A program made the translations under genes and the position numbers. Of a DNA stretch of 64,000 nucleotides, positions 27,916 through 33,866 are shown one piece after another; position 1 is the first letter of the stretch; the number at the start of each line of letters is the position of its first letter. A model generated the notes under the pieces. That model searched no databases and was not told the origin of the DNA. It worked only from the letters and a program-made list of their open reading frames with translations. The stretch is taken from assembly GCA_001929475.1 (NCBI GenBank), contig LXFE01000515.1, forward strand, positions 1-64,000, read 5' to 3'. The DNA is from Neolecta irregularis DAH-3. Taxonomy: Eukaryota.

Positions 27916-29064
27916 TTTTTTATTGGAGATATATCATGTGGTTAATATTGTGGATATCAGTAATGTGTATGGTGCGAATGGTGTTTGTTATTAGGACTGT
28001 AGATCTAATATCTAATTTTTGGTTGAAGAATTGAAAGAGAAAGATATAGTATGAACGTACACAAGTGATGCCGGCTCCAGCAAATGGTTTCTATCAACGG
28101 TATTGCTGAAATGTAACAGTTTAGTTTGGGCCAGGCCGAAGTAGTGTGCAGCTCAATTATTCAGATCAAGACTACATCATTGGTGTAACGCCTGGTCTTC
28201 CACTTTAGAATGATAAGAAACAGTCGAAATTGGCCAGCTTTTAACGCGCTGGATTAAACTAAACTCAAAGAGTACATCACATAATTAGTTGGGGCAGGAA
28301 ATGTAGATCATATCCAGAAGGTTTCTTACTGTAATTCTACCCAACATTAATGAGCGCCGGAAATTCCTGTCAATTGCTCTGTTAGAACTGAGGGTTCGGT
28401 TTCAGGCTATTTGCTATCGAATTGATCAATATTGAAAGGGCCAGTTGCACAAAGTCTGCTGGCCTGAATCACCCGCTTAGCATCGAGTCTGGCTCGTGCA
28501 AAAAAGAAGTCGGGGCTATTCAGATGATTGAGTTTTAGATAGTGTTAGCCACTTATTGCTTAAAATATACCAAAAGTCGTAGAAACAGCGCATCATCTGA
28601 CACCGGAAACGCGAGAAATAATATCCCTAGAAGGGTTTCAACCTTTAGCTGTGAACCTTGAAAAAAGCGACCAACTTCAACCTAAAGCGTAAAAATCCTG
28701 TTCAGATGAACCGAATAAAAATTACAGGGCTCGTAGCATAAAACGTCACAAAAAAAGTCTGTTACTAGTGAACATCAATAAATATTCTACAGGTAGATAA
28801 GAGTGATTACAGATCGTTATTTGAGTTCCGAGCCTATAGCCGCTTGAAATAGTAGTATAGAGGGCATGTATCTTTCAATACCATAGAGAACCATATACCC
28901 AACGCCAGAGCAGGGTTGGCAGACTTTCCTTGTTTCGACCGGCAAAAACAATGGACAAGGATCTTTTTTTAGCTCTCTGTATTTCGAGCAAGGAATTCTT
29001 AGCGCCCGTAGAAGAATGCAACAAAAGCGTCCGATGTGGAATTTATCAATTCATATCCTGAACG

Positions 29065-31246
29065 ATGACACTCAACAATCCCATGAAATCCCCGGCTATT
29101 TCTAAGGCATCAACCGTTTTGGATGAAGATGGGCGTCAACTGGTACGAATCTCAGCGGAGCATTGACATTCCTTCGTCCTTTCATCTGTGAGTAGAGGTG
29201 ATGAAAAGTTTACCCACCAAACGACGCTGCAAGAAACAATGACAGTGGGGTGCCCCTAAAAAGGCTGAGATGATACCCATTGAACTTGCCTCACGGTAAT
29301 GCGTGCGAAAGGATTTGTCATTGCTTCTTGCGCTGTACGTTTCCAGGTTTTCGGCTAACCATCTGCAGCATGCTATAGGTTACACTCAGGTGCATTGTTA
29401 TGTTGATATATCGACCTAACAAGTAGACTTTGAAACGGTCCTTTGATTTGTTTGAAAGCTTTGCTGCCAGCTTTGGTATATCCTGCGTCATGGCAAGCCA
29501 GCTTATGGACAGCGGCAGTTTATGTCTTTTCAGGTCTTCGATTCCTGTTCAGCACTTCAATTGCTGCCGGAGGGCCTGCAGCATACTGGTGGACCGGTCT
29601 TTTTGGAAAAACAACTGATTTAAGGTCATCATATATTATCTGTGTGATCTTTACGTTGGTCACCGCTGCAGTTCTCGCAGAGATATGTTCGGCTTTGCCA
29701 GCTGCTGGCTCCGTCTATCTGTGAATCTTCCGTCTATCTAAAAGTTTATATTGGTAGCTGGGCTGCTTCGTCAGGTGGACTAAAATATGGTCGTTTCTTT
29801 GGTTTCCTAACTGCTTGGTGTACGAGATTCTACATGCATTAGATACTTACTCGCAAGGGGCAATTACCGCATGGGCCACTTTTGTTGCAAGCCTTTCACA
29901 AGTCGTCATGTACTTTGCACTTTCTGTATTCTACTAAACCATTCTTCAACTTATCGCAAAGGAACTCACAATCTTTGATGTTGAATCCTTTCCACAAACA
30001 CCAACCGATATCAAATTTAGAGCAGTCGTGTGGATTGGCGGCCAAATCGTTCTCGCAGTTATGATTGGCCTGAATTTGGTCTCTCCAGGCCATTACAAGT
30101 TCATTTTCCGTTTCGCTACTGCGATGATTATGCTCGACTTTTTTCTCAACTTAATTTGGCTTCCGATTGGCGTTAATAGGACGTATGGTTTTCAAAGCGC
30201 CAAGTTCGTTTTCACGAAAACGTATAACAAAACTGGAGCATCGCCCGTTTGGAATTGGATGTTGAGTTTCTTTGCAACAGGCGGTGCACTTGTTGGTTTT
30301 GATGCGTCCGGTCACATTGCCGAGGAAACGCACAATGCTGTATCTCCTATACTGCACAATTCTCGTTGATTGTTTAGAGTTTAGTCGCTGCCCGCGGTGT
30401 ATTCTTGAGTGCATTAATGAGCTGTGTCTTTGGATTTCCATTTATCATGCTTTTCCTCTTTTGCACAGCAAGTTGAACAATTCTTCATCATAGTAACGAG
30501 CCAGCCTGATGTCGACCAATTATTTGCTCTTGACACCCCCCAACCAATAGTTCAATTCTATGCATTGTCTCTTGGTCAACACGGACACGTCCTTATGAAC
30601 GTTGTTCTTATTATTGCCATGATTTTGGTACATTTCTTTTAATCATGGCTAACAATAGAATGGTGCGGTATCCACAGTTGCTGCCTCCCGATTGGTCTAC
30701 GCAATTGCTCGAGATGGAATTTTACCCTTTTCTGGGTATATTCGTCGACTTGCGCCTAATGGTCAACCTCGCAATGCTATTTTCGTGATCTGGGGAGTAG
30801 GAGCCACTTTGCTCTTCACGATTTTAGGCAGCCCTGTTGCATTTAACAGCCTAGTTTCCGCAGCTGGAATGCCGACCTTTGCTTCTTGGGCTCTTATTGC
30901 ATGTATGCGTATTAATTACATGTTCAATCTGGCTAATCGGCCAGTTGGCCGAGCATTTATCACACCAAACAATTTCAAGAACCCACGATGGTCCCTTGGA
31001 AAGTTTTCAAGGCCCTTTCGTGTCCTGGCATTCATTTACACCTCGTTCATGTGTTGTGTCCTTTGTTCGCCTCTCCAGTTTCCGGTAACGATTGATACAT
31101 TCAACTTTTGTCCCATTATATTCCTTGTGGTTACGATATTGGCTGTCATTTCATGGTGGCTCACGCCAGAAGACAATTGGTTGGAAAAAAGATTCATTCA
31201 ACATATACAGGAAGACAAACTCTTATATCCACAACTTCAAAAGTAA
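29065..31246 (+). CDS. APC-superfamily permease (UGA4/HNM1/Thi9-like); many introns; candidate thiamine-related transporter
   Basis: DEDGRQL|HAIGYTQ|TLKRSFDLFESF, LAEICSALPAAGSVY, GFDASGHIAEET, SRLVYAIARDG and WSLGKFS motifs, with multiple TM helices. Confidence 0.9.
29229..29331 (+). promoter_or_regulatory. TPP riboswitch aptamer in intron 1 of the permease
   Basis: Core reads GGGGTG-CCCCT AAAA AGG-CTGAGA-TGATACCC-ATTGAACTTG-CCT-CACG GTAAT G CGTG-CGAAAGGA. It is closed by P1 GCAAGAAACAATGACA (29229-29244) pairing with TGTCATTGCTTCTTGC (29316-29331). Confidence 0.9.
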
Positions 31247-32995
31247 AACCAAGCGCCAAAGACCAATGAATATACAAAACTGTATTGGTTCTATAGAATG
31301 AATATGGACGCGCATTCTACTGTTATTAGTTGTGATTACCATGAAAGATTACCTCTAGATCACCCCAATGTTTGTTTTGAGGATGATGACAATGTTGAGG
31401 TGCATGAACTATTGGAGGCCTTGCGTTTCACTTCTTTCCGCTTCTTGCAGACCTTTCGCTCGACATATCTGTAAATGAAATATACGGCGATATCCAAAGT
31501 GGCGTCTTTGAGTGCCTGGACAGGGGAAGGCATGTTGTGCATTGATGGAGTGATAAGGACAAAGGGGGCGGTCAAGTTACTTTATAGGGTATATCTTTAC
31601 AGTCAGTGCGTCATCTGGGTACCCGTTGCGTCGTTCCTGAGCGAGATTCCAGCCGTAGTGATTAAAATCAGCAAGAAGGCTGGCATTCAAATCGCAAAGG
31701 GCAATACTCATATTATATGCTACTCAATATGGCAGCACCTGAATCATGACAGATGAGATGGCCCGTCATGAATACTCGGCATCCGCATATTCGAGGCCAA
31801 TGGGATTATTGTGTCTGGGTGGGTCATCCGCCACAAATGACAAACATGAAACGAGTCCCCTAATTCCAGTCCAAGATTTATATCGGCATTCTTTAGAATT
31901 ATCAAAATAACCCTACTTTATTGTGCGTTTTGCTTTCCTTTTGGTGTTTTGGCATGTAATTTATGTATTAATCAGAGTCTTGACTCAAGTCTCGTTTCGG
32001 GTACCTTGACCGTGTGGCACCGCTGACGAGATATTGCAAATTTCAACTTTAATTCCGTCAACCCATTCATTCACCTGTCCCTATTCCTCCTTGACCGGAT
32101 CCAGGATGATGATGGCGGGTATTTCCTTTTTTCCTTTTTTTTCAATTATCTATTTATCTCTACTTCCGGGGAGGCTGGTAGCCTGCTGCGCAGCCATCGA
32201 CCGCTCCCGGATTTTCCTCCTCTGTAATATCTCGTCGACTGCTCTTTCCATTTGATACCAGCCTGCTGCTGGCGGCTATTAAAAGGGCTGGTCTTCTGTT
32301 TTGTTAGTGTATTAATCTATTTCCGTTTCTAAGTCTTGAGGGCCCAAGAGACTGAAATCCTGGACGACCACGCTCACCAATCAACAATCTATAAACCTAT
32401 AAACCCTTGCAACATCTAACTACACCCTGCGTGCAACAACCGCTTCGCACAATTACAACTTTGACAGCCCCCTCTAGACTACATTACGTCATGTTTTTTT
32501 CTAGCAGATCATTTTGAAGAATGACACATTTAAACTATACTGGAATATATAGACTGGAATCCATAGAATTTCTAGACCCTTGTTCTTGTATTGCAGTCAC
32601 GGGCCTGCAACCACCCTACGCGTCTGTGGTACGAAAATGATATTGTAATCTTTTGGAGGATATTTTCAAGTGGTCTCTTGTTTGGCTTTTCCTTTGGTCA
32701 AAGTCTCAGTTTCTATAACCAAAGCTGCTGTTCTGTTTTCTATAAGTAGACCTGTAGGTGCTTGCTTGTAAGACCGATGAATAATGCTCTATTCATCCAG
32801 CAAAGGAATCTTACCATCGTTTTTTCTCGGTTTATACAAGTCATCTAAGTCTGCAAAGCTCTACAATTGCAGTCTGCGTGTAACACGCCCTTTCCGGGAA
32901 ATATCTCACTAACAAGTAACGTACAGTAGTCTCATTGAATCTCTCTTACAAACCACACAAGGATAAAGATATTTTTCGAAAAACGATGACAATTG

Positions 32996-33866
32996 TTAAT
33001 CAATAGACTCCTCTTCCAACCCTATGATGAACTCCCAATCTTCCTTGGAGACTTTTGATACACTCAACTGAGATCTCTTCAACATCTCCAAATTACTCAG
33101 TTGAGTAAATTTATATTGTTTCAAATTGGTCAGTGTGATTATTCGGTTTAAGTGACGCGTGAATTGAACGTCGACCATAAACCACCTTGGATCCTCTTTT
33201 TGCGATTTATGATCGAAATATGGATGATTTTCATCCCATGCTGTGTCTATTTGTATTAATAAAGTTGGGAGTGTCGGGAGCGTGCAATCTGGATATGCTT
33301 CTTTGATGATCTCCAATTTTGTTAGCATCAAAATCGACTGCAAGTGAATTACCTCTACGACACCTGTATATTGTATTTAGCCCCAAATATGTTTGTTATG
33401 GGAAGGGGGGACATACCTACGATTCCTGGGTTTTTGCAATTACTATGGTAAAAAAATGCCAAATCGCCTTTTTTCATTCCATACCACATATTATTCCTCG
33501 CTTCATAATTGCGCTTGATGATTAGGAAATACAATCGTTCTCATCCTTTTAATACCACGCCTTCCCAACTAGACGTTCTATATCACGGCTTTAGCATCGC
33601 GGTGGAAGAGAGAGAGGTATACCCCAGTTTCTCGAGATCATGGATACTGAATTTAACGTCCTTTCCTTTTACAATTCTGGTTTCTGGTTCCGCTTTAATT
33701 AGCCAGTATCGTTTCCCCCCGATTTCTCTCTCCAAATGATCAGAATATTATTATTATTTTATATTGAGAGAAATACTTTATACGGCTGTTCAAGTTGATA
33801 CTCTTTTTCCTTTAAACGTTTCGATTGGATGGTTTCATCGTTGGTGGGTTTGCGCTTAGGGGGCAT
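32996..33866 (-). CDS. EVE domain protein (THYN1-like)
   Basis: RYWLIKAEPE, KFSIHDL, WEGVV.., FFYHSNCK.PGI, HPYFDHKS, PRWFMVDV and QLSVSKV motifs. Confidence 0.9.

What the first reader, a model, noticed from the sequence alone, without database searches (positions are those of the whole stretch)
29143..29368. Intronic TPP riboswitch with competing 5' splice sites controlling an APC-family permease
Seen: intron 1 is 226 nt, against about 35-45 nt elsewhere, and contains a complete TPP aptamer. Donors occur at 29143 (GTACGA, productive, phase 0), 29188 (GTGAGT) and 29335 (GTACGT). The last lies 4 nt after the 3' arm of the 16-bp P1 and would define a normal-sized 34-nt intron using the same GCTAAC branch and CAG acceptor. 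Using a downstream donor retains an in-frame TGA at 29164-29166. Known: Neurospora NMT1, THI4 and NCU01977 are regulated by intronic TPP riboswitches through alternative 5' splice sites, and S. pombe Thi9 is an APC-family thiamine transporter. Inference: this gene imports thiamine or a precursor and is switched off by splicing, through a donor located 3' of the aptamer.
Basis: partly seen in the sequence, partly recalled or inferred. Interest (0 to 1): 0.85.

Follow-up and report, generated by a model that had tools for sequence, protein, structure and literature searches.

The report
Thiamine riboswitch in a Neolecta transporter intron

Summary
A TPP aptamer (RF00059, 56.1 bits, threshold 54.3) lies at 29236-29331. 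It sits inside a 226-nt first intron of a 12-exon APC permease gene whose other ten introns are 31-42 nt. The exons are identical to the Neolecta irregularis DAH-3 protein named 'thi9'.

This gene class is already in print as a riboswitch group (THI9 / TPPsw-AA), so the find is a new member of a known kind.

The proposed mechanism, switching off through the donor at 29335, is not supported:
- That donor is paired in an extension of P1 in both Neolecta species.
- All three RNA-derived contigs of a sister species have the other ten introns removed but keep intron 1, including the 34-nt mini-intron.
- The donor at 29188 is not conserved.

Something new did turn up. The first ~50 nt of the intron are complementary to the 3' half of the aptamer plus the P1 3' shoulder (-37 to -42 kcal/mol; 0 of 400-500 shuffles). 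A basidiomycete-like homologue shows the same complementarity. This resembles the long-distance switch of Neurospora NCU01977.

My best reading (about 0.5): low TPP favours the bridge and productive splicing. High TPP locks the aptamer, the intron is retained, and translation stops at TGA 29164.

No RNA data for this organism could be obtained.

The parts
29065..29142 (+). Exon 1 of the permease gene (ATG to codon 26, ending ...DEDGRQL, phase 0)
   Evidence: Sequence; ORF frame. The sister species has the same 26-codon exon. The alignment to Saitoella, Protomyces and Savitreella proteins is gap-free across the junction. L020, L044 and L066 have homologous exon-1 ends (...EDEKLL...SDERYL...QDELQL).
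29143..29368 (+). Intron 1, 226 nt, carrying the riboswitch
   Evidence: It is exactly 226 nt in the sister-species contig L001 as well. The ten other introns are 31-42 nt.
29143..29148 (+). Distal, productive 5' splice site GTACGA
   Evidence: Only this donor joined to 29369 gives the open, homologue-collinear protein. It is conserved in L001.
29164..29166 (+). In-frame TGA, met if the 5' part of intron 1 stays in the mRNA
   Evidence: L001 has an in-frame TAA at a different place (L001 170-172, read).
29149..29197 (+). Alpha-like strand: intron 5' segment complementary to the aptamer 3' half and P1 3' shoulder. It includes the block 29172-29194, which is 21/23 identical in the sister species.
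   Evidence: RNAduplex gives -37.1 kcal/mol and 31 bp with both donors excluded, z -5.6. None of 400 dinucleotide shuffles and none of 400 natural decoys reach it. With the donors included the value is -41.9, with 0/500 shuffles and 0/600 decoys. Alternative Fold 2 is; block conservation is.
29188..29193 (+).
   Evidence: It is ATGAGT in L001. In Fold 2 it is paired with 29290-29296.
29219..29226 (+). 5' strand of P0, the extension of P1 that pairs with the 29335 donor
   Evidence: MFE helices 29219-29223/29338-29342 and 29224-29226/29334-29336. L001 has 195-199/314-318 and 201-203/311-313. CCAAACGA at 29217-29224 is invariant between the two species inside a diverged stretch.
29236..29331 (+). 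TPP aptamer (RF00059), with a short P3 and no P3a
   Evidence: Orthologous or homologous-site aptamers occur in L001 (65.6 bits), L020 (59.9), L044 (59.0) and L066 (55.4). Six of 13 consensus pairs show compensatory changes among the five.
29228..29245 (+). P1 5' strand (extended P1)
29285..29338 (+). Alpha-prime: aptamer 3' half (P4/P5 3' strands), P1 3' shoulder, GCGCU and the start of the 29335 donor. This segment can pair either within the aptamer/P1/P0 fold or with 29143-29197.
   Evidence: In the best duplexes 38 positions are paired in the window and 35 in L001, and 25 are shared.
29335..29340 (+). Proximal donor GTACGT of a canonical-looking 34-nt mini-intron. It is predicted to be paired in both alternative folds and is unspliced in the sister-species RNA contigs.
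   Evidence: It lies within the 50-nt run 29297-29346 that is identical in L001. The mini-intron is retained in L001 and in the ORFs of all 3 contigs of the cluster. The deposited model P0001 uses it.
29354..29368 (+). Branch-site motif GCTAAC and 3' splice site CAG, shared by the long intron and the mini-intron
   Evidence: Comparable CTAAC/CTAAT/CTTAC motifs lie 5-10 nt before the acceptors of the other introns.
29369..29389 (+). 21-nt micro-exon 2 (HAIGYTQ)
   Evidence: A 21-nt exon encoding xxLGYKQ at the same place is flanked by introns on both sides in L044 and L066. L020 has the same codons but no intron 2.
29390..31246 (+). Rest of the gene: introns 2-11 and exons 3-12, to the stop codon. 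Intron 9 (30468-30504) is GC-AG.
   Evidence: Exon list. Pfam PF13520 (8.5e-14) and PF00324 (2.2e-7) match the last exon.

Best explanation
This is the Neolecta member of the THI9-type (amino-acid-transporter-family) group of fungal TPP riboswitches. A TPP aptamer sits in the phase-0 first intron of a Thi9-like APC permease gene. A functional protein needs the whole 226-nt intron removed, from the distal donor at 29143 to the acceptor at 29368.

The intron can adopt two mutually exclusive folds.

Fold 2, the bridge (inferred to be favoured when TPP is low). The aptamer's 3' half, the P1 3' shoulder and the start of the proximal donor (29285-29338) pair with the first ~50 nt of the intron (29143-29197). 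This dismantles the aptamer and loops out about 140 nt. It places the distal donor about 30 nt from the acceptor, which is the normal intron geometry of this genome. Splicing is then productive.

Fold 1, the aptamer (inferred to be locked by TPP). The aptamer forms with its 17-bp P1 and the P0 extension. The bridge cannot form, and P0 keeps the proximal donor GUACGU at 29335 paired. The distal donor is left stranded far from the branch site. Intron 1 stays in the mRNA, translation stops at TGA 29164, and no transporter is made.

Shown here:
- the aptamer and the gene model
- both sets of complementarity, with their statistics
- conservation in a sister species and in a distant homologue
- natural RNA-derived contigs that retain intron 1

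Inferred, not shown:
- that TPP chooses between the folds
- the direction of the switch
- thiamine as the substrate
For: 1. Aptamer. It reaches the Rfam threshold in the window and at the homologous intron position in 4 of 80 related loci. Six of 13 consensus pairs covary.

2. Gene model. The model is 12 exons and 528 aa. Intron 1 is 226 nt against 31-42 nt for the other ten introns. The productive junction is collinear with homologues.

3. Bridge in the window.
- The duplex between 29143-29197 and 29283-29343 is -41.9 kcal/mol. None of 500 dinucleotide shuffles and none of 600 natural decoys reach it.
- With both donors excluded it is -37.1 kcal/mol and 31 bp, z -5.6, with 0/400 shuffles and 0/400 decoys.
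- The same 5' segment against the aptamer's 5' half is unremarkable: 46/400.
- As a whole-intron structure the bridge costs only 3.9 kcal/mol more than the MFE (-57.7 vs -61.6). Its helices hold a mean pair probability of 0.17 in the ligand-free ensemble.

4. Bridge in other loci.
- L066, whose nearest named relatives are Thelephora and Mycena: -40.3 kcal/mol, 1/500 and 0/400 shuffles, 0/326 and 0/400 decoys.
- L001: -28.0 kcal/mol, 3/500 and 2/400 shuffles, collinear with the window; 25 positions are paired in both.
- L044 contains an 11-bp match between a segment 29 nt after its donor and its P1 3' shoulder.

5. Geometry. In the window the strand starts 0-10 nt after the donor and alpha-prime ends 30 nt before the acceptor. 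NCU01977 has both distances under 60 nt, and there alpha/alpha-prime pairing was shown by mutagenesis to promote the distal donor at low thiamin (PMC3597705 section 10).

6. Intron retention in natural RNA. L001 has all ten other introns removed and all 226 nt of intron 1 present. All 4 ORFs on the 3 contigs of that protein cluster begin inside the retained 3' part of intron 1. No member has the productive N-terminus.

7. P0 pairs the 29335 donor in both species despite three substitutions in its 5' strand.
Against: - No RNA data for this organism and no thiamine-dependent data of any kind could be obtained.
- The bridge is much weaker in the sister species. Without the flanks it is -21.1 kcal/mol, reached by 13/400 shuffles and 73/400 window decoys. 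With the flanks, 28/400 decoys reach it. As a whole-intron fold it is 10.3 kcal/mol worse than the MFE.
- The bridge is only marginal in L044 (24/400).
- L020 has no bridge of this type (137/500). Instead a helix flanks the aptamer and does not compete with P1.
- Nearest-neighbour energies favour the P1/P0 fold even without ligand (P1 0.77, P0 0.79). A 17-bp P1 is long for a switching helix.
- In the window the bridge pairs the first five bases of the distal donor itself. Forcing the aptamer raises that donor's predicted accessibility (0.43 to 0.59) and penalising the aptamer lowers it (0.36). This would fit the opposite polarity.
- The predicted accessibility of the 29335 donor (0.31) lies inside the range of the ten constitutive donors (0.19-0.87). 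Masking by P0 is therefore not demonstrated by thermodynamics alone.
- The three retained-intron contigs may come from related samples. Assembly reports one isoform per locus.
- The apparent compensatory change at 29296/29186 is a register shift, not a strict covariation.
Confidence: 0.5

Rival explanations
1. TPP binding diverts splicing from the distal donor 29143 to the proximal donor 29335 (or 29188). This removes only a short intron and leaves the TGA-containing segment in the mRNA.
For: - The 29335 donor, with GCTAAC and CAG, forms a 34-nt unit within the size range of the gene's other introns (31-42 nt).
- It lies in a 50-nt run that is identical in the sister species.
- The deposited model P0001 splices 29334^29369.
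- The layout matches Mukherjee's predicted Type III (PMC5882874 section 7).
- In the window, GUGAG at 29188 can pair with the P5 strand 29290-29296, as in the NMT1-type masking of a proximal donor.
Against: - The 29335 donor is paired in P0, which stacks on P1, in both species. Forcing the aptamer lowers its predicted accessibility from 0.31 to 0.23.
- All 3 sister-species RNA-derived contigs keep the mini-intron while every other intron is gone.
- GTGAGT at 29188 is ATGAGT in the sister species.
- None of L020, L044 and L066 has a clear consensus donor at a workable distance 3' of the aptamer.
- P0001 also mis-models introns 9 and 11, so it looks like an ab initio model. The annotation methods are in a supplement I could not open.
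Confidence: 0.17
2. Opposite polarity. The bridge masks the distal donor when TPP is low, and TPP binding frees it. The permease is then induced by TPP, and retained-intron RNA is the low-TPP form.
For: - In the window the bridge pairs G29143-G29147.
- The distal donor's predicted accessibility is highest with the aptamer forced: 0.59, against 0.43 free and 0.36 with the aptamer penalised.
- In L001's aptamer-type MFE the donor's +3 to +7 bases are instead paired in a local hairpin. Structure near this donor is therefore variable.
Against: - It makes no regulatory sense for a thiamine importer.
- In NCU01977, which has the same geometry, alpha/alpha-prime pairing raises distal-donor use and thiamin represses (PMC3597705).
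- The donor-donor pairing is a 5-bp terminal helix of a palindromic GUAC and is absent in L001.
- The bridge remains highly significant with both donors excluded.
Confidence: 0.1
3. No switching. The aptamer with its 17-bp P1 is constitutively folded, or is a decaying relic. Intron 1 is simply a slow, often-retained long intron, and the 5' complementarity is incidental.
For: - P1/P0 dominate the ligand-free ensemble (0.77 and 0.79).
- The whole-intron MFE is not exceptional (z -0.74).
- The window's Rfam score is only 1.8 bits above threshold.
- A 2022 paper notes that THI9-class riboswitches lack experimental validation (PMC8786325 passage).
Against: - The aptamer is kept at the same intron position in lineages as far apart as Neolecta and an agaricomycete-like fungus, with compensatory changes in P3-P5.
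- The aptamer and its 3' flank are far better conserved between the two Neolecta species than the rest of the intron.
- Complementarity of z -5.6 in the window and z -3.8 in L066 is hard to credit to chance.
Confidence: 0.08

Closest known systems
THI9-type / 'TPPsw-AA' group of fungal TPP riboswitches (Moldovan, Petrova & Gelfand 2018, as cited by Donovan et al. 2018 PMC5997356; Mukherjee et al. 2018 PMC5882874; ACS Omega 2024 PMC11683625)
   Same: A TPP aptamer is associated with an amino-acid-permease-family gene homologous to S. pombe Thi9. Donovan's text says Thi9 orthologues in other Taphrinomycotina, Pezizomycotina and basidiomycetes carry riboswitches. The ACS Omega paper lists amino-acid transporters as one of five established groups.
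   Different: - My searches found no paper linking Neolecta to a riboswitch. 'Neolecta' plus 'riboswitch' returned one irrelevant paper.
- The Moldovan paper is not held, so it may already list this gene.
- Mukherjee et al. state that this class is absent in Ascomycota and that long-distance pairing is used by no gene class other than the urea-transporter family. The present data disagree on both points.
- The class was still described as experimentally unvalidated in 2022.
Neurospora crassa NCU01977 (DUR31-type) TPP riboswitch, long-distance alpha/alpha-prime mechanism (Li & Breaker 2013, PMC3597705; sections read)
   Same: - The aptamer lies in a large intron between coding exons.
- A segment just after the distal donor is complementary to the P1 3' shoulder.
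- Both elements lie within 60 nt of their splice sites.
- Non-productive products include the fully unspliced intron.
- An in-frame stop ends the non-productive reading frame.
   Different: - The gene family differs (sodium:solute symporter vs APC).
- The separation is about 140 nt rather than about 530 nt.
- The complementarity here is far longer (31-38 bp in interrupted helices against about 11 bp). It reaches into the P4/P5 strands.
- The host genome has 31-42-nt introns.
- There is a canonical-looking proximal donor 3' of the aptamer, paired in a P1 extension. NCU01977 has nothing equivalent; its alternative donors S2-S4 are all upstream of the aptamer.
N. crassa NMT1 / THI4 riboswitches (Cheah et al. 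2007, as summarised in PMC3597705 and PMC5882874; the original was not read)
   Same: An aptamer strand (P4/P5) is complementary to a region around an upstream alternative donor. In the window, 29186-29192 pairs with 29290-29296.
   Different: Those aptamers sit in 5'-UTR introns and act through uORFs; here the intron interrupts the coding sequence. The upstream donor here is not conserved.
Schizosaccharomyces pombe Thi9 thiamine transporter (Vogl et al. 2008; known to me only through citations)
   Same: APC-type permease. The nearest database entry to the window's protein is named after it.
   Different: S. pombe Thi9 itself was not among the listed hits. Orthology and substrate were therefore not tested here. 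From recall, S. pombe regulates thi9 transcriptionally and has no TPP riboswitch.

Membership tests
TPP riboswitch aptamer (Rfam RF00059) | Covariance-model score at or above the curated gathering threshold over the full model | tested here: met
   56.1 bits against 54.3, model positions 1-105/105, E 2.7e-8. The orthologue in L001 scores 65.6 bits.
TPP riboswitch aptamer (Rfam RF00059) | Helices maintained by compensatory substitutions among homologues | tested here: met
   Five aptamers from homologous intron positions were compared. Of 13 consensus pairs, 6 have both-sided changes that keep the pair, in P3, P4 and P5.
TPP riboswitch aptamer (Rfam RF00059) | Specific binding of thiamine pyrophosphate | not testable with these tools
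   Needs in-line probing or ITC.
Fungal THI9-type (TPPsw-AA) riboswitch group | The aptamer is embedded in a gene of the amino-acid/polyamine permease family | tested here: met
   PF13520 (8.5e-14) and PF00324 (2.2e-7) match the last exon. The full-length spliced model aligns over about 500 residues to fungal permeases at 50-58% identity.
Fungal THI9-type (TPPsw-AA) riboswitch group | The gene is an orthologue of S. pombe Thi9 and transports thiamine | not tested
   Only automatic source names point to Thi9: 'Thiamine transporter thi9' for P0001, P0007-P0011 and P0038. The S. pombe protein was not among the listed hits, so no tree was built. No uptake data exist.
Long-distance (Type II, NCU01977-like) splicing switch | The aptamer lies in a large intron separating coding exons, and the distal donor gives the only open frame | tested here: met
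Long-distance (Type II, NCU01977-like) splicing switch | An element within about 60 nt of the distal donor is complementary to the P1 3' shoulder, so that it competes with P1 | tested here: met
   Window: -37.1 to -41.9 kcal/mol, 0 of 400-500 shuffles and 0 of 400-600 natural decoys. The pairing uses 29315-29332, the P1 3' strand.
Long-distance (Type II, NCU01977-like) splicing switch | The complementarity is conserved in homologous riboswitch introns | tested here: inconclusive
   Of five introns, two are strong (window, L066) and two are marginal (L001: 2-3 of 400-500 shuffles but 28/400 decoys; L044: 24/400). One lacks it (L020, 137/500).
Long-distance (Type II, NCU01977-like) splicing switch | Thiamine lowers distal-donor use and raises unspliced or alternatively spliced RNA | not testable with these tools
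   No RNA run was listed. Intron-1-retaining RNA contigs exist in the sister species, but the thiamine status of those samples is unknown.
Type III scheme of Mukherjee et al. 2018 | Internal intron of 200-400 nt, two alternative donors, and an in-frame stop upstream of the aptamer | tested here: met
   The intron is 226 nt, with donors at 29143 and 29188 and TGA at 29164. The second donor is not conserved. The scheme itself is a prediction without experiments.
NMT1/THI4-type (Type I) switch | The aptamer lies in a 5'-UTR intron and acts through a uORF | tested here: not met
   The intron lies between codons 26 and 27 of the coding sequence.

The most novel reading that the evidence does not exclude
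In a fungus whose introns are only about 31-42 nt long, the riboswitch does not choose between two live donors. It works by intron-geometry mimicry.

A 31-38-bp bridge between the start of the intron and the aptamer's 3' half collapses the 226-nt intron. The distal donor then occupies the spatial position of a canonical 34-nt mini-intron's donor. That mini-intron donor (29335), which lies 3' of the aptamer, is kept silent in both states: by the bridge at low TPP and by the P1 extension P0 at high TPP.

The same bridging principle would then be ancestral to THI9-type riboswitches in both ascomycetes and basidiomycetes. That would contradict the published statement that only the urea-transporter class uses long-distance pairing.
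Probability: 0.3. Interest if true: 0.6.

Novelty: new member of a known kind. Interest (0 to 1): 0.4.

Why it matters
TPP riboswitches are the only riboswitch class established in eukaryotes. Only a few have a worked-out mechanism (NMT1, THI4, NCU01977/DUR31, plant THIC). The THI9/amino-acid-transporter group is known only from genome scans and has been called unvalidated.

This locus adds three things:
- a clean Taphrinomycotina example, with natural RNA-derived contigs of a sister species that retain exactly the riboswitch intron
- statistically strong long-range complementarity in this class, which one survey said was restricted to another gene family
- a compact 226-nt test object in which a fully canonical mini-intron is apparently silenced by RNA structure

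Practically, the deposited gene model for this protein starts inside the aptamer and should be corrected.

None of this changes the general picture of how fungal TPP riboswitches work.

Tried and rejected
Searches and tools that gave nothing:
- No whole genome is held for the window.
- No RNA holder was listed for 28900-31300. Read laying therefore could not be used.
- Moldovan et al. 2018 is not held.
- Supplements are closed, so I could not see the Neolecta annotation methods or the riboswitch lists of Mukherjee and Donovan.

Analyses that were weak or uninformative:
- Whole-intron folding energy is not unusual: z -0.74.
- Duplex tests against sub-regions only were weaker than the combined target:
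  - P1 3' shoulder: window 5/300, L001 80/300
  - P4/P5: 42/300 and 22/300
  - P2/P3 and the P1 5' shoulder: not significant
- A regex pre-filter for aptamers found only L001 and missed the three others that Rfam found. I dropped it.
- Predicted accessibility of the 29335 donor (0.31) is not lower than that of the constitutive donors (0.19-0.87). I do not use accessibility as evidence for masking.
- I repeated it with fewer shuffles.

Readings I considered and rejected or could not test:
- I first read G29296/C29186 versus A272/U162 as a compensatory pair. Positional homology in alignment A2 shows a one-base register shift instead, so I do not claim covariation.
- P0001's start codon inside the aptamer (29299) would give an in-frame alternative N-terminus after 29334^29369 splicing. 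I considered a translational role for the aptamer. Many upstream ATGs precede it, and there is no evidence that this junction is used.
- Skipping of the 21-nt micro-exon, which would stay in frame, was considered but cannot be tested here.
- Neighbouring ORFs show no thiamine link. Of 6 ORFs scanned, the only Pfam hit is an EVE domain at 32996-33376 (-).
- S. pombe Thi9 did not appear among the 37 and 120 listed homologues, so no orthology tree was made.
Full report
**What is there**

Rfam finds one family in the 64-kb window. It is a full-length TPP aptamer (RF00059) at 29236-29331 on the + strand, scoring 56.1 bits against a gathering score of 54.3 (E 2.7e-8).

The surrounding gene is an APC-family permease. 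Pfam PF13520 and PF00324 match the last exon. The best database relative is 'Thiamine transporter thi9 [Neolecta irregularis DAH-3]' (P0001). Its exons are letter-identical to the window, so the window is that organism or a near-identical strain.

I built a gene model using a transcript-derived protein of a sister species (P0002) as guide. It has 12 exons and 528 codons with one terminal stop.
- Intron 1 is 29143-29368, 226 nt.
- The ten other introns are 31-42 nt. One of them (30468-30504) is a GC-AG intron.
- Joining 29142 to 29369 gives ...DEDGRQL|HAIGYTQ|TLKRSF.... This aligns without gaps to Saitoella, Protomyces, Savitreella and other homologues.

The TGA at 29164-29166 is in frame. P1 is 8 + 9 bp around one A-C mismatch.

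**A sister species and RNA-derived contigs**

A scan of metagenome contigs with a profile of the family returned 80 loci. L001 (1922 nt) encodes a protein about 87-89% identical to the window's. It starts 40 nt before the ATG and ends 48 nt after the stop.

In L001 the coding sequence downstream of intron 1 is one continuous 1596-nt frame. All ten short introns are therefore absent, and it is RNA-derived. Yet it contains all of intron 1, which is again exactly 226 nt. Its aptamer scores 65.6 bits.

The 90%-identity protein cluster around it has four ORFs on three contigs (1974, 1922 and 1735 nt). All begin inside the retained 3' part of intron 1 and read through the 34-nt mini-intron. No member has the productive N-terminus.

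So 3 of 3 contigs on record retain the riboswitch intron, and none has used the donor that corresponds to 29335. There are two caveats. The contigs may come from related samples, and assemblies report one isoform per locus.

**Conservation within intron 1**

The window and L001 are 85% identical over the aligned region, but the identity is uneven.
- The run 29297-29346 (50 nt) is identical. It covers the aptamer's 3' part, the P1 3' strand, GCGCU, the GTACGT donor and six further bases.
- The block 29172-29194 is 21/23 identical.
- CCAAACGA at 29217-29224 is invariant.
- The stretches between these are diverged.

**An old arrangement**

RF00059 reaches threshold in 4 of the 80 loci: L001, L020, L044 and L066. 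In each case it lies in the intron that follows a short first exon ending ...(D/E)xxxL. That intron precedes 21 nt encoding xxLGYKQ.

These introns are 193, 324 and 300 nt. L066's closest named relatives are agaricomycetes. L044's and L020's are ascomycetes.

Among the five aptamers, 6 of 13 consensus pairs keep pairing through double substitutions.

**Two alternative folds**

In the minimum-energy fold of both Neolecta introns, P1 is prolonged by a helix I call P0. It pairs the GUACGU donor.
- In the window, P0 is 29219-29223/29338-29342 plus 29224-29226/29334-29336.
- In L001, it is 195-199/314-318 plus 201-203/311-313.
- This holds despite three substitutions in the 5' strand.

If the native aptamer pairs are penalised, the window's intron refolds at a cost of only 3.9 kcal/mol (-57.7 against -61.6). 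The new structure pairs 29143-29192 with 29290-29338 in seven helices totalling 34 bp. L001 gives a collinear structure at a cost of 10.3 kcal/mol.

As a bimolecular test, I compared the first 55 nt of the intron with the aptamer 3' half plus P1 3' shoulder.
- Window: -41.9 kcal/mol. None of 500 dinucleotide shuffles and none of 600 natural 55-mers from the window reach it.
- Window with both donors excluded: -37.1 kcal/mol, 31 bp, z -5.6, 0/400 shuffles and 0/400 decoys.
- L066: -40.3 kcal/mol, with 1/500 and 0/400 shuffles and 0/326 and 0/400 decoys.
- L001: -28.0 kcal/mol, with 3/500 and 2/400 shuffles but 28/400 window decoys. Without the flanks it is -21.1, with 13/400 shuffles and 73/400 decoys.
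- L044: -36.1 kcal/mol, reached by 24/400 shuffles. It contains an 11-bp match between a segment 29 nt after the donor and its P1 3' shoulder.
- L020: nothing of this kind (137/500). Instead a helix flanks the aptamer.
- Controls against the aptamer's 5' half: unremarkable, at 46/400 and 312/400.

Of the alpha-prime positions, 38 are paired in the window and 35 in L001; 25 are shared.

**Comparison with known mechanisms**

In NCU01977 of Neurospora, an element alpha lies less than 60 nt after the distal donor. At low thiamin it pairs with the P1 3' shoulder (alpha-prime), less than 60 nt before the acceptor, and promotes the distal donor. TPP binding captures alpha-prime in P1, and alternatively spliced and unspliced RNAs with stop codons accumulate. 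Deletions and compensatory mutants showed this (PMC3597705, abstract and section 10).

The Neolecta intron has the same logic and geometry, with differences.
- The complementarity is longer.
- The loop is shorter.
- The gene family is different.
- There is an added canonical-looking proximal donor 3' of the aptamer.

In the bridge fold, the distal donor ends up about 30 nt from the acceptor. That is the normal intron size of this gene.

**Direction and outcome**

I infer that low TPP favours the bridge and productive splicing. High TPP would lock the aptamer/P1/P0 fold and lead to intron retention and a stop at 29164. This rests on three things: the NCU01977 precedent, regulatory sense for an importer, and the retained-intron contigs.

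The evidence against is real.
- The nearest-neighbour model favours P1/P0 even without ligand (0.77 and 0.79, against 0.17 for the bridge).
- The bridge is much weaker in L001.
- In the window the bridge pairs the first bases of the distal donor. That donor's predicted accessibility is highest with the aptamer forced (0.59, against 0.43 and 0.36).
- The 29335 donor's predicted accessibility (0.31) is within the range of constitutive donors (0.19-0.87).

I put 0.1 on reversed polarity and 0.08 on no switching. The rest goes to mixtures, such as cryptic upstream donors acting together with retention.

**What is known**

I read passages of Donovan et al. 2018 (PMC5997356).
- THI9 is one of five fungal riboswitch gene groups identified by Moldovan et al. 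2018.
- Thi9 orthologues in other Taphrinomycotina, Pezizomycotina and basidiomycetes contain riboswitches.

The ACS Omega 2024 paper (PMC11683625, passages) lists 'TPPsw-AA' among five established groups.

Mukherjee et al. 2018 (PMC5882874, passages and section 7) make three relevant statements.
- They describe the amino-acid-transporter class as absent in Ascomycota.
- They say no gene class other than the urea transporters uses long-distance pairing.
- They define a predicted, untested Type III: internal intron of 200-400 nt, two donors, in-frame stop.

A 2022 paper notes that the thi9 class lacks experimental validation (PMC8786325 passage).

My library searches found no paper that describes a Neolecta riboswitch.
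- 'Neolecta' + 'riboswitch' returned 1 irrelevant paper.
- 'thi9' + 'riboswitch' returned 4 papers.

Moldovan et al. is not held, and supplements are closed. The gene may already be listed there, and that paper may already discuss pairing in this class.

**Verdict**

This is a true TPP riboswitch in a known gene class: a new member of a known kind.

The most interesting residue has two parts. One is the strong long-range complementarity in this class. The other is a canonical mini-intron that stays unspliced in natural RNA, apparently because its donor is structurally hidden.

Thiamine as the substrate and orthology to S. pombe Thi9 rest on database names and on the literature. They were not tested here.

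Noticed in passing
window 29299-29368 and the whole gene 29065-31246: The deposited protein model P0001 (506 aa) starts at an ATG inside the aptamer (29299) and splices 29334^29369. It also misses the GC-AG intron 30468-30504 and uses a different junction at intron 11. The homology-guided model is 528 aa and starts at 29065.
   Followed up: yes
window 30468-30504: Intron 9 has a GC donor (GCAAGT...CAG, 37 nt). The sister-species transcript shows that this interval is removed.
   Followed up: partly
window 29369-29389; L044 4946-4966; L066 4947-4967: A 21-nt micro-exon encoding xxLGYxQ is flanked by two phase-0 introns. It is conserved from Neolecta to an agaricomycete-like fungus. L020 has lost the downstream intron. 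Skipping the micro-exon would stay in frame.
   Followed up: partly
window 29143-29147 and 29334-29338: The distal and proximal donors share GUAC(G), which is self-complementary. The two donors can therefore pair with each other (5 bp) at the end of the bridge fold. This is not possible in the same way in L001's best duplex.
   Followed up: partly
window 29016 and 29034 (upstream ATGs); L001 1-40: Two out-of-frame ATGs lie 31 and 49 nt upstream of the start codon. The sister-species transcript contig begins only about 40 nt upstream of its ATG and lacks the nearer one, so they may lie outside the mRNA.
   Followed up: no
L020 4802-4811 and 4975-4985; 4821-4839 and 4954-4970: In L020 the distal donor GUUAGUUAAG is complementary to the branch-site region CUUAGGCUAAC. 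A 9-bp helix (ACAUAGAAU/AUUCUAUGU) brackets the aptamer outside P1. This is a different way of bridging the intron ends and does not compete with the aptamer (-24.7 kcal/mol, 15/500 shuffles).
   Followed up: partly
P0155/P0156 (JGI/IMG contig of 1735 nt): One of the sister-species contigs has a frameshift consistent with a one-base indel a few codons after the intron-8 junction, which splits the ORF in two. It is probably an assembly or sequencing error.
   Followed up: no
window 32996-33376 (-): This ORF has an EVE domain (PF01878, 6.1e-17). None of the six neighbouring ORFs scanned has a thiamine-related family.
   Followed up: no
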